Origin: Escherichia coli
GTDB taxonomy: Bacteria > Pseudomonadota > Gammaproteobacteria > Enterobacterales > Enterobacteriaceae
Assembly: GCF_024223415.1 (NCBI RefSeq)
Contig: NZ_CP100500.1
DNA: 64,000 bases
Direction: 5' to 3' (one strand)
Positions 6,001-9,000 of the stretch are shown here, one piece after another. The position numbers are program-made. The stretch's first letter is position 1; every line of letters begins with the position of its first letter.

Positions 6001-9000
6001 CACAAGTAACATCCTGACCTTCCTGACGTGCACGAGTCACTTCTTCAACGCCTTCCGGGCTGCTGATATGGCAAACGTGCAGACGGCAACCGGCAACTTT
6101 CGCCAGATACAGCACGCGGCGAATCGCTTCCACTTCGGTAAATACCGGACGCGAAGCCACATAGTCATGGGCAGTTACGCGACCTTCACGTTTCGCTTCT
6201 TCGCCCAGTGCGTCACAGATCAGCGCGTTTTCGCAGTGCACCAGCACCGGCTGCCCCAGTTCGCCCAGCTTCTGCGCACCTTTGAAGAACTGCCAGTCGT
6301 TTACATCACGGAAGTCGTTGTCGATACCGCGATCGCCACAGGTCGCAACGAAGCATTTGAAGCCGACAACGCCCACTTCATCCAGCTCATGCAGACGGTC
6401 GATGTTGTAAGACACCAGGCCACCGAGTTGTGCCGCATCGATAGTCAGCTTGCCTTTAGCGGCATCGAACTTCAGTTCAATTGAAGCGCGGTCAACCGTT
6501 GCAGGCAGCTGGTTGAGCGGCATTTCGATCATGGTGGTGATACCACCTTTTGCCGCTGCGCGAGTACCGGTTTCATAACCTTCCCAGTGGCTACGACCCG
6601 GTTCAGAAATATGGGTGTGCGCATCAACCATGCCCGGCGAAACCACCAGACCAGACGCATCCATAACTTCTTTTGCATCGCCCAGATCCTGACCGATAGC
6701 AGCAATTTTGCCGCCTTTAACGGCGATATCTACAACGCGAGCTTCGTTTTCTAAAATAACGGTGCCGTTTTTAATGATTAAATCAAAAGACATAACAAAC
6801 TCCTTGTAAAATACAGATTGGTTTTTAACTCAATGTTCAATATCGGGATTAATTAACCTATGGTTTTTTGCTCTCCTGTTTTTTCTGCTGTTGTACGTTT
6901 CTTTAATAAGGCGTAGGCCGCAAAGGCGACGATGACGCCGACAAACCATGAAACACGCGATAACGGTTCCATAAAGGGAATAAACTTACCGCCAAGAGAT
7001 AAAATAACGGCCACCAGAGTTACTGAAAACGCGGTGAGGTTAAAACCGTTATCGTAATATTTATAATCGCCAGGTGCGGTGTACAGTTCATCAAGATTAA
7101 TTTGCCCACGCATCACCACAAAATAATGCGCCATCATGACACCAATTACCGGACCCAGCATTCCGCCGATGATATCGAGGAACAGATAAATACTGTCCTG
7201 ATTTTCCATTAATTTCCACGGGCAGATCAGCAGGCTGATAATACTGGCAATCAGTACGCCGTTTTTATAGGTCAGTTTTGTCGGTGCAATGGCAGCAATC
7301 TAATAACCGGCCGGAATAATATTACCGGTGGCGTTAGTGGAAATGGTCGTCATCAGAATAACCAGTACCGCAAAGAACGAGGCAAACAGGCTGTCCCAAC
7401 GCTGAACAATATCCAGCACGTTCCAGGTGTCAGCGCCGTAGTGAATACTGGCTCCGGCAATAATACATACCCCAGCGACCGCAAACAGAATATAGGCCAC
7501 AACTAAACCCAGCGTTTGCCCCAGCGCTTGCTCACGAAACGAGTGGGCGTTTTGCGTAAAGTCGGATGCGCTCACCGCCGGTGCCGCCCAGACCGCAACT
7601 ACCGCATTAATCACTACCAGGAACAAGAATCCACTGTTTTCTGCTTTCTGAATACCGCTCGGAATGTAGTCAAAGATTGGACCGAGCCCGACCAGCGAAA
7701 TCGCCCAAATCGCCATACCGCCGAAAACGATATAGATGCACGGGTTAAGAATAGCAGTGAATTTATTTAAAACTTTGCCACCGCCAAAACCTATACCAAC
7801 GTTGACCAGCCAGAAGAGTAAGAAAGTAATTAAGCCCGGTAGAGAAAGGCCTAACAGAGTGAAATCACCACCGAGAGTCAAAAATCCCGGCCAGATTTTG
7901 CCAATCAGAATCAAGCAGGCCAGTGACCCCGCGTAACATTGCAGGCCAAACCACATAATGGCAGCAATACCGCCTCTTAATAATCCGGGAAACAGTGCGC
8001 CACGTACGCCGTAAGAAGCACGCAGGATCATGGCAAACGGTACGCCGTATTTACTGCCCGCAGCGCCGTTTAATACCATTACCGCGGCAATGAAAAAGGC
8101 GCTGAGGATAATTGCCAGCATAATACTAAAGGTAGACAAGCCGAGAATAAAAAAGCCGCCGACCATCACATAATTGGGAACGTTATGAACCGAACCCATC
8201 CATAAGGTAAAATAGTTAAATGTTTTCCAGGTCCGCTGGCTTTGCGTTTTCGGCAATAGATCTTCGCTATAGCCGCGTTGCTGGAATAGTTTTCTCTGAT
8301 GTTCCATAAATCCCTCTTAATTTCACGTATCGAATAACGTTGTTTTAATCTAGCTATGAGGAACAAATAAAATAAAAATATTATTTTTAATACTGAAGCA
8401 ACATCTTTGGCTGCTTTCTTTTTTAATATTGCTGGCCGATTCATTTTCTGATATCGGCCATTTTTATTGCGGGTATCAGGCCAGTTTATGGTTAGCCATT
8501 AATTCCAGCGCCTGCACTAACGCAGAGTGATCCAACTGGCTGCCACCGTTTGCCGCACAGGTATTAAATAGCTCCTGGCAGGTCGCAGTGTTTGGCAGGT
8601 TCAGCGCCAGTGCTTTCGCACTTTGCAGTGCCTGGTTGAGATCTTTCTGGTGCAGCGCAATTTTGAAACCTGGATTAAAGGTGCGTTTAATCATGCGCTC
8701 ACCGTGAACTTCCAGAATACGTGAGGAAGCAAAGCCGCCCATCAGCGCCTGGCGCACGCGTACCGGGTCTGCACCGGCTTTTGAAGCAAACAGCAGAGCT
8801 TCAGAGACCGCTTCAATATTGAGCGCCACAATAATCTGATTTGCCACTTTGCAGGTTTGTCCGTCGCCGTTACCGCCCACAAGGGTGATATTTTTACCGA
8901 GCAGTTCAAATAGCGGTTTAACACGTTCAAATACCGCTTCGTCACCGCCAACCATAATTGACAACGTACCTTCACGCGCGCCGATTTCGCCGCCGGAGAC

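What the first reader, a model, noticed from the sequence alone, without database searches (positions are those of the whole stretch)
7297..7305. Single in-frame amber (TAG) codon truncates the allantoin permease gene ybbW at codon 336
The two ORFs covering ybbW are in the same frame and are separated only by TAG at 7300-7302. Read-through restores a continuous 484-codon frame. The permease would be truncated after about 70 percent of its length, probably inactivating allantoin uptake while the catabolic enzymes remain intact.
Basis: seen in the sequence. Interest (0 to 1): 0.45.

Follow-up and report, generated by a model that had tools for sequence, protein, structure and literature searches.

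The report
Amber-truncated allantoin transporter gene allW
One C-to-T change has turned glutamine codon 336 of the E. coli allantoin transporter gene allW (ybbW) into a stop codon; the change is real and inherited in a small clone, and it is an ordinary young pseudogene.

Summary
allW (ybbW) lies on the minus strand at 8307..6853. Codon 336 is TAG (window 7302..7300), and reading through it gives a continuous 484-codon frame. The gene differs from allW of the closest E. coli genomes by one base, CAG(Gln336) to TAG. No complete RefSeq E. coli genome matched the TAG-bearing sequence exactly. The identical TAG allele is present in at least six independent public assemblies or read sets that differ elsewhere, so it is an inherited mutation and not a base-calling error. 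The stop falls just after transmembrane helix 8 of this NCS1/Mhp1-type permease and removes helices 9-12, so the product should be inactive. A published allW deletion abolishes allantoin uptake. An integrase-bearing phage-satellite island is inserted at the allE start codon, changing ATG to AAG and separating allE from its allDC operon. A sister branch of the same clone carries an allS nonsense mutation and a hyi frameshift. I found no sign of recoding or suppression, but only this window could be searched for tRNA genes. Verdict: an ordinary lineage-specific loss of function, of low interest.

The parts
7303..8307 (-). allW (ybbW) codons 1-335, the part still translated. It covers predicted TM1-TM8, including the STNxxxN motif of TM8.
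   Evidence: The exact 335-aa product is in NCBI as SRA14802.1.
7300..7302 (-). Premature amber codon TAG at codon 336. The mutated base is window 7302: plus strand A where relatives have G, i.e. gene strand C to T, CAG(Gln) to TAG.
6853..7299 (-). Untranslated remnant of allW: codons 337-484 plus the natural stop, covering predicted TM9-TM12. It has no base difference from the intact allele, so the pseudogene is young.
   Evidence: The 118-aa ORF from the ATG at 7209 is deposited as SRA14801.1.
2907..12024 (-). The gcl-hyi-glxR-allW-allB-ybbY-glxK operon that contains allW. Every other frame in it is intact.
   Evidence: Frames checked. Operon structure is from PMC10163214.
1894..2679 (+). 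allE ((S)-ureidoglycine aminohydrolase) with its start codon changed from ATG to AAG at 1894..1896. There is a TAA immediately upstream in frame. The first in-frame ATG/GTG/TTG is the GTG at 1954.
1890..1902 (+). The allE-side copy of the 13-nt attachment core ATAAAWGGGATAT of the inserted island. In AR_0085 the allC-side copy keeps ATG and the allE-side copy carries AAG.
   Evidence: Homology to island-free relatives starts at 1890.
492..1742 (-). Tyrosine integrase of the island inserted between allC and allE. The rest of the island lies beyond the left end of the window.
   Evidence: PHROG integrase match with E = 3.6e-73; Pfam Arm-DNA-bind_3 and Phage_integrase on the identical locus L004

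Best explanation
This is a recent, inherited nonsense mutation: a G:C to A:T transition that changes CAG to TAG at codon 336 of allW, the NCS1-family allantoin transporter of the E. coli allantoin regulon. Translation stops just after transmembrane helix 8. The 335-residue product lacks TM9-TM12 and cannot complete the ten-helix LeuT-type core, so it should be inactive and probably unstable. The clone should therefore not take up allantoin. The mutation arose once in a small clone nested among E. coli genomes with an intact regulon. Its descendants have since acquired further lesions in the same regulon. Shown here: the base change, its uniqueness among close relatives, its reproducibility in independent assemblies, and its position relative to the Mhp1 structure. 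Inferred: loss of transport activity, and absence of suppression.
For: There is a single internal stop in an otherwise continuous 484-codon frame. There is one base difference from allW of SCU-316, CAG to TAG. The close relatives compared base by base (SCU-316, KV7, L026-L029) have CAG. Gln336 is present in all ten full-length E. coli and Salmonella AllW proteins examined. The TAG allele, with 0 mismatches across the gene, is on contigs from GCA_900482235.1, ERR3437659, SRR7874689 (a contig seen in 4 samples) and SRR19977217, and in GCA_044079975.1 and GCA_018050105.1. These contigs differ from one another at other sites, so they are separate isolates. In the Mhp1 alignment (E = 2.5e-24), Gln336 falls one residue after Mhp1 Tyr324, directly after the STNxxxN stretch of TM8. 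Hydropathy shows four further hydrophobic segments after residue 336. A published allW deletion gives no detectable allantoin uptake (PMC10163214). The region downstream of the stop has no base difference from the intact allele, as expected for a young pseudogene.
Against: Low-level natural read-through of UAG by tRNA-Gln would insert the wild-type residue (background knowledge, not tested), so a trace of full-length AllW cannot be excluded. The genome outside the window could not be searched for a suppressor tRNA. The raw reads of the source assembly were not seen; support comes from other assemblies of the same clone.
Confidence: 0.9

Rival explanations
1. The TAG is a base-calling or assembly error in this one genome, and the gene is really intact.
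For: No complete RefSeq E. coli genome gave a 100% match to the gene or to a 61-nt probe centred on the TAG. The window also has a homopolymer length difference (A7 against A8 at 17055..17062) relative to all relatives, which could hint at some assembly noise.
Against: The same TAG is present in at least six independently generated assemblies or read sets from different submitters. They differ from each other elsewhere. The change is a substitution, not a homopolymer indel.
Confidence: 0.02
2. The amber codon is read through, either by a suppressor tRNA elsewhere in the genome (supE-like, inserting Gln) or by a programmed recoding event, so full-length AllW is still made.
For: A glutamine-inserting suppressor would restore exactly the wild-type protein. 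The downstream 148 codons are still undamaged.
Against: There is no tRNA gene in the window. The stop is not conserved in any relative examined; all have CAG, which argues against programmed recoding. Strong amber suppressors are rare in natural isolates (background knowledge). A sister branch has accumulated further null mutations in the same regulon, which fits a pathway that is no longer under selection.
Confidence: 0.03
3. Loss of allW was positively selected and not merely tolerated. On this reading, allantoin import or expression of the regulon is costly in this clone's niche, and the later lesions continue an adaptive shut-down.
For: In the branch represented by SRR7874689 and GCA_044079975.1, two of the three branch-specific changes in about 18 kb are null mutations in the same regulon: allS W212* and a hyi -1 frameshift. 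An independent stop mutation (Trp to Stop) in the allantoin permease was shared by Salmonella Heidelberg isolates evolved in poultry litter (PMC6118388).
Against: The numbers are tiny and no statistical test is meaningful. The pattern fits simple relaxed selection after the first hit equally well. The island insertion at allE is site-specific and occurs in AR_0085, whose allW is annotated as an intact CDS. The missense changes first suspected of being decay (AllR P190L, GlxR L241Q) are standing variants also found with intact regulons.
Confidence: 0.05

Closest known systems
E. coli AllW (YbbW), the allantoin transporter of the NCS1 family (TC 2.A.39.3.8), as characterised in PMC10163214
   Same: The nucleotide sequence is identical to the common allele (protein WP_000401139.1) except for one base. 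The position in the gcl-hyi-glxR-allW-allB-ybbY-glxK operon is the same.
   Different: Codon 336 is a stop, so only residues 1-335 are made and TM9-12 are lost.
Mhp1, the hydantoin permease of Microbacterium liquefaciens (PDB 2JLN, 4D1A), the structural model for NCS1 transporters
   Same: It aligns over residues 19-438 (E = 2.5e-24), and the TM8 stretch STN(A/P)xxN is conserved.
   Different: The window's product ends one residue after the equivalent of Mhp1 Tyr324. It therefore lacks the equivalents of TM9 and TM10, which complete the second inverted repeat (background knowledge of the LeuT fold), and of TM11-12.
Loss-of-function alleles of the allantoin permease in Salmonella, for example the Trp to Stop mutation shared by S. 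Heidelberg isolates evolved in poultry litter (PMC6118388)
   Same: It is the same kind of event, a single nonsense mutation in the orthologous transporter.
   Different: The species, codon and setting differ. No experimental evolution or phenotype is attached to the allele seen here.
Pathway decay by successive pseudogenes in clonal enterobacteria such as Shigella and host-restricted Salmonella (background knowledge)
   Same: There are several independent lesions in one regulon within one clone: the allW amber, allS W212* with a hyi frameshift in one branch, and allE decapitated by an island in another.
   Different: The scale is very small and the events are very recent. I have no evidence that the clone is host-restricted or that decay extends beyond this regulon.

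Membership tests
AllW/YbbW orthologue (NCS1, Pfam PF02133 Transp_cyt_pur) | Sequence orthology to E. coli allW | tested here: met
   1,454 of 1,455 bases are identical to allW of SCU-316. 5,304 complete genomes hold a match covering at least 80% of the gene.
AllW/YbbW orthologue (NCS1, Pfam PF02133 Transp_cyt_pur) | PF02133 domain and homology to the NCS1 structure Mhp1 | tested here: met
   PF02133 is recorded on both the 335-aa and the 118-aa products of the identical locus L004. The Mhp1 match has E = 2.5e-24.
AllW/YbbW orthologue (NCS1, Pfam PF02133 Transp_cyt_pur) | Conserved position between glxR and allB in the gcl operon | tested here: met
AllW/YbbW orthologue (NCS1, Pfam PF02133 Transp_cyt_pur) | Complete 12-helix open reading frame (functional transporter) | tested here: not met
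   There is a stop at codon 336. Four hydrophobic segments (349-367, 375-397, 421-445, 449-470) lie after it.
AllW/YbbW orthologue (NCS1, Pfam PF02133 Transp_cyt_pur) | Allantoin transport activity | not testable with these tools
   This needs an uptake assay such as the one in PMC10163214.
Nonsense-mutation pseudogene | In-frame premature stop where full-length orthologues have a sense codon | tested here: met
   TAG here against CAG in SCU-316, KV7 and L016-L018, L020, L023-L029. Gln is present in ten full-length proteins.
Nonsense-mutation pseudogene | Reproducible in independent sequence data (not an artefact) | tested here: met
   L004, L005/L022, L006, L007, L019 and L021 all carry TAG.
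Nonsense-mutation pseudogene | No suppression, so no full-length product | not testable with these tools
   Only the window could be scanned, and it holds no tRNA gene.
Programmed stop-codon recoding or read-through gene | Stop codon conserved among orthologues | tested here: not met
   All relatives outside this clone have CAG. No complete genome matched the TAG-centred 61-nt probe exactly.
Programmed stop-codon recoding or read-through gene | Dedicated suppressor tRNA or recoding element nearby | tested here: not met
   There is no tRNA gene in the 64-kb window. No search was made for RNA recoding structures.

The most novel reading that the evidence does not exclude
The allW amber mutation was the first step of a selected, stepwise shut-down of the allantoin regulon in one E. 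coli clone. It was followed by independent second hits in separate branches: allS nonsense plus a hyi frameshift in one, and loss of the allE start codon through insertion of a phage satellite in the other. This would parallel the permease stop mutation seen in Salmonella evolved in poultry litter.
Probability: 0.12. Interest if true: 0.3.

Novelty: already known. Interest (0 to 1): 0.12.

Why it matters
It matters little beyond strain annotation. The clone carrying this allele is predicted to be unable to import allantoin, and so unable to use it as an anaerobic nitrogen source. Genome annotators should mark allW as a pseudogene and not as two 'putative allantoin permease' genes, which is how the two ORFs are deposited as SRA14802.1 and SRA14801.1. 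The one mildly useful point is that several lesions in the same regulon have accumulated within one young clone, which could serve as a small case study of pathway decay after a first hit. The satellite that removes the allE start codon on integration is a separate minor curiosity.

Tried and rejected
1. Dcm deamination hotspot. The classic amber hotspots are CCAGG sites, but the context here is TAT-CAG-ATT (TCAGA), so I rejected this.

2. Rho-dependent polarity on allB, ybbY and glxK. I looked for C-rich, G-poor stretches in the 509 nt after the stop. The C/G ratio never exceeds 1.5 and is mostly below 1.1. Polarity is therefore not predicted, but the test is crude and the question stays open.

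3. Functional rescue by a split protein. The next in-frame ATG is codon 367, preceded only by a weak GGAA. A 118-aa fragment starting there would still lack residues 336-366, so rescue is unlikely.

4. AllR P190L and GlxR L241Q as further signs of decay. I rejected this. AllR Leu190 also occurs in distant lineages with intact allW and a 261-aa allE, and the position is not conserved in IclR. GlxR Gln241 is indexed in 280 collection blocks, and the four places shown all have an intact regulon. The position is L/L/N in solved homologues.

5. Six of the ten contigs returned for the exact 335-aa product (L008-L013) are different alleles cut by a contig end after codon 335. They are not TAG alleles, so I did not count them as support.

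6. A literature search for the accession numbers of the TAG-bearing data sets found nothing. Searches for allantoin permease pseudogenes in E. coli and for a satellite site at allE/ylbA returned only noise. I found no paper describing this allele.

7. The strain, serotype and sequence type of the clone could not be determined with the tools used.

Full report
**Observation**

The window region 6853..8307 encodes, on the minus strand, the allantoin transporter gene known as ybbW and now named allW. The plus strand reads cta at 7300..7302, which is TAG on the coding strand. Translating the whole gene gives 484 sense positions with one internal stop at codon 336 and the natural stop at the end. 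The ORF list shows a 335-aa ORF (7300..8307) and a 118-aa ORF starting at the next ATG (6853..7209). Both are in the same frame, and no other stop lies between them.

**What changed**

A megablast of the gene against 5,426 complete RefSeq E. coli genomes found it in 5,336 of them. The match covers at least 80% of the gene in 5,304, and the listed rows annotate it as 'allW: allantoin transporter'. The best identity was 99.9%, and none reached 100%.
- A base-by-base comparison with the best hit, strain SCU-316, shows exactly one difference in 1,455 bases. It is gene position 1006 (window 7302), CAG (Gln) in SCU-316 and TAG here.
- A 61-nt probe centred on the stop found 1,632 genomes, and none matched exactly.
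- Gln336 is present in all ten full-length E. coli and Salmonella AllW proteins examined.
- The context is TCAGA, not the CCAGG Dcm hotspot, so this looks like a plain G:C to A:T transition.

**Is it real?**

The exact 335-aa product is in the public protein collection as SRA14802.1. The 118-aa downstream ORF is deposited as the adjacent entry SRA14801.1, and both are named 'putative allantoin permease'.

Looking up where the 335-aa protein is encoded returned ten places. Four of them carry the TAG with no mismatch to the window gene:
- L004, from GCA_900482235.1
- L005, from ERR3437659
- L006, from SRR7874689 (a contig seen in four samples)
- L007, from SRR19977217

The other six (L008-L013) are different alleles that are cut by a contig end after codon 335, so I did not count them.

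Two further NCBI assemblies, GCA_044079975.1 (L019) and GCA_018050105.1 (L021), also have TAG. These contigs differ from each other at other positions, so they come from distinct isolates. L004 is 100% identical to window 1..16307. The stop is therefore an inherited allele of a small clone and not a sequencing error.

**Where the clone sits**

The closest genomes with an intact regulon differ from the window by only 6-11 changes over 12-19 kb. These are KV7, SCU-316 and the four GlxR-Gln241 carriers L026-L029. All of them have CAG at codon 336 and ATG at the allE start. The part of allW downstream of the stop has no base difference from the intact allele, so the pseudogene is young.

**Consequence for the protein**

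AllW aligns with the NCS1 hydantoin permease Mhp1 (PDB 2JLN) over residues 19-438, with E = 2.5e-24. The stop falls one residue after the equivalent of Mhp1 Tyr324, right after the conserved S-T-N-x-x-x-N stretch of TM8. Hydropathy shows four more hydrophobic segments after residue 336, at 349-367, 375-397, 421-445 and 449-470. These correspond to TM9-12.

From established knowledge of the LeuT/Mhp1 fold, the transport core needs TM1-10, so a TM1-8 fragment should be inactive. A restart at Met367 would still lack residues 336-366, and it is preceded only by a weak GGAA. Experimentally, a K-12 allW deletion shows no detectable allantoin uptake, and AllW is proteolysed unless it is bound to AllB (PMC10163214). 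Loss of allantoin import is therefore the expected phenotype. This is an inference, because nothing was tested on this strain.

**Possible complications**
- No tRNA gene lies in the window, and the rest of the genome could not be searched for an amber suppressor.
- Background read-through of UAG is low and would insert Gln, the wild-type residue. This is background knowledge and was not tested.
- A crude look for C-rich, G-poor RNA after the stop found none, so polarity on allB, ybbY and glxK is not predicted. It is also not excluded.

**The rest of the pathway**

The frames of glxK, ybbY, allB, glxR, hyi, gcl, allR, allA, allS and mnmH are intact. allE is not.

Homology to island-free relatives stops at window 1890. 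To the left lies a tyrosine integrase at 492..1742 on the minus strand (PHROG integrase match with E = 3.6e-73).

The allE start codon reads AAG instead of ATG at 1894..1896, with a TAA just upstream in frame.

Strain AR_0085 has a related island at the same site, about 11 kb long, between allC and allE. It encodes an integrase, an AlpA-like regulator, Icd, a RepA helicase, SSB, PerC, a major capsid protein, a head decoration protein and a head-tail connector. That gene set is what is described for capsid-forming phage satellites. This is a resemblance I recall from memory and did not test.

Comparing both junctions in AR_0085 with the empty site gives a 13-nt direct repeat, ATAAAWGGGATAT. The allC-side copy keeps ATG and the allE-side copy has AAG. 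Integration itself therefore removes the allE start codon and separates allE from the allDC part of its operon.

Twelve of 5,426 complete genomes carry an island at this junction. In AR_0085, allW is annotated as an intact CDS, so the island and the amber are independent events.

**Further decay in a sister branch**

Relative to the window, contigs L006 (four samples) and L019 share three changes: allS W212* (TGG to TAG), allS A14T and a 1-nt deletion in hyi. In L019 no products are on record for allS, hyi or allW, as expected if they were annotated as pseudogenes. allE there is called at its full 261 aa, whereas L021 and L004 have the 247-aa call that goes with the island.

The likely order is that the amber came first and is shared by all. 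After that, the island inserted in one branch, and the allS and hyi null mutations arose in the other. The absence of the island in L019 is inferred from the gene call and was not read directly.

**What I withdrew**

I first suspected that AllR P190L and GlxR L241Q were part of a decay signature. AllR Leu190 also occurs in distant lineages with intact allW and a 261-aa allE, and the position is not conserved in IclR. GlxR Gln241 is widespread in genomes with an intact regulon, and the position varies in solved homologues. Neither is evidence of damage.

**Comparison with what is known, and novelty**

The gene is a characterised transporter, and the event is a textbook nonsense mutation. The allele is already in public assemblies, though I found no paper describing it. 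A similar stop mutation in the Salmonella Heidelberg allantoin permease was reported from experimental evolution in poultry litter (PMC6118388). Nothing points to recoding, because the stop is not conserved in any relative.

**Verdict**

This is an ordinary, lineage-specific, young pseudogene. The most interesting reading still open is an adaptive stepwise shut-down of the allantoin regulon in this clone. It rests on very few events and fits relaxed selection equally well. Interest is 0.12.

Noticed in passing
window 1..1902 (integrase 492..1742 minus; att core 1890..1902); compare L014 8000..19280: An integrase-bearing island is inserted exactly at the allE start codon. Its 13-nt att core, ATAAAWGGGATAT, overlaps the ATG, and the allE-side copy carries AAG, so integration removes the allE start. 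In AR_0085 the related island, about 11 kb long, encodes a capsid, a head decoration protein and a connector, like a capsid-forming phage satellite. Only 12 of 5,426 complete genomes have this junction.
   Followed up: partly
L006 and L019 (equivalent to window 14353, 13758 and 9982-9984): A sister branch of the same amber-carrying clone also has allS W212*, allS A14T and a 1-nt deletion in hyi. It was seen in four Logan samples and in NCBI assembly GCA_044079975.1.
   Followed up: partly
window about 20772..20850 (Rhs core gene, ORFs 17281..20775 and 20772..21521, minus strand): Relative to KV7 there is a 38-bp tandem duplication. It shifts the frame of the Rhs core protein gene and splits a 1,400-aa frame into 249-aa and 1,164-aa ORFs.
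   Followed up: partly
window 17055..17062: The homopolymer is A7 here but A8 in every relative that covers it. It lies in the ylbG/Rhs-remnant region and could be real or a homopolymer assembly error.
   Followed up: no
window 36679..57456 (minus), with flanking 33342..36655 and 57559..58914: There is an intact 6,925-aa ORF matching the gene annotated in KV7 as 'BapA-related adhesin SiiEA'. It is flanked by HlyD-type, ABC-type and TolC-type type I secretion genes. In KV7 the giant gene is marked as a pseudogene with an internal stop, but here the frame is open.
   Followed up: partly
window 61690..64000 (integrase 61759..62802 minus; 99-aa regulator 62842..63141 minus): Homology to KV7 ends at 61689, after glsA. 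A second tyrosine integrase and a 99-aa phage transcriptional regulator follow. This suggests another prophage or island inserted between glsA and copA and running off the right end of the window.
   Followed up: partly
window about 2770..2774 (glxK-allE intergenic region): Three independent short-read assemblies of the clone (L005, L006, L007) all break within a few bases of this point. That suggests a repeated sequence there or just beyond it.
   Followed up: no
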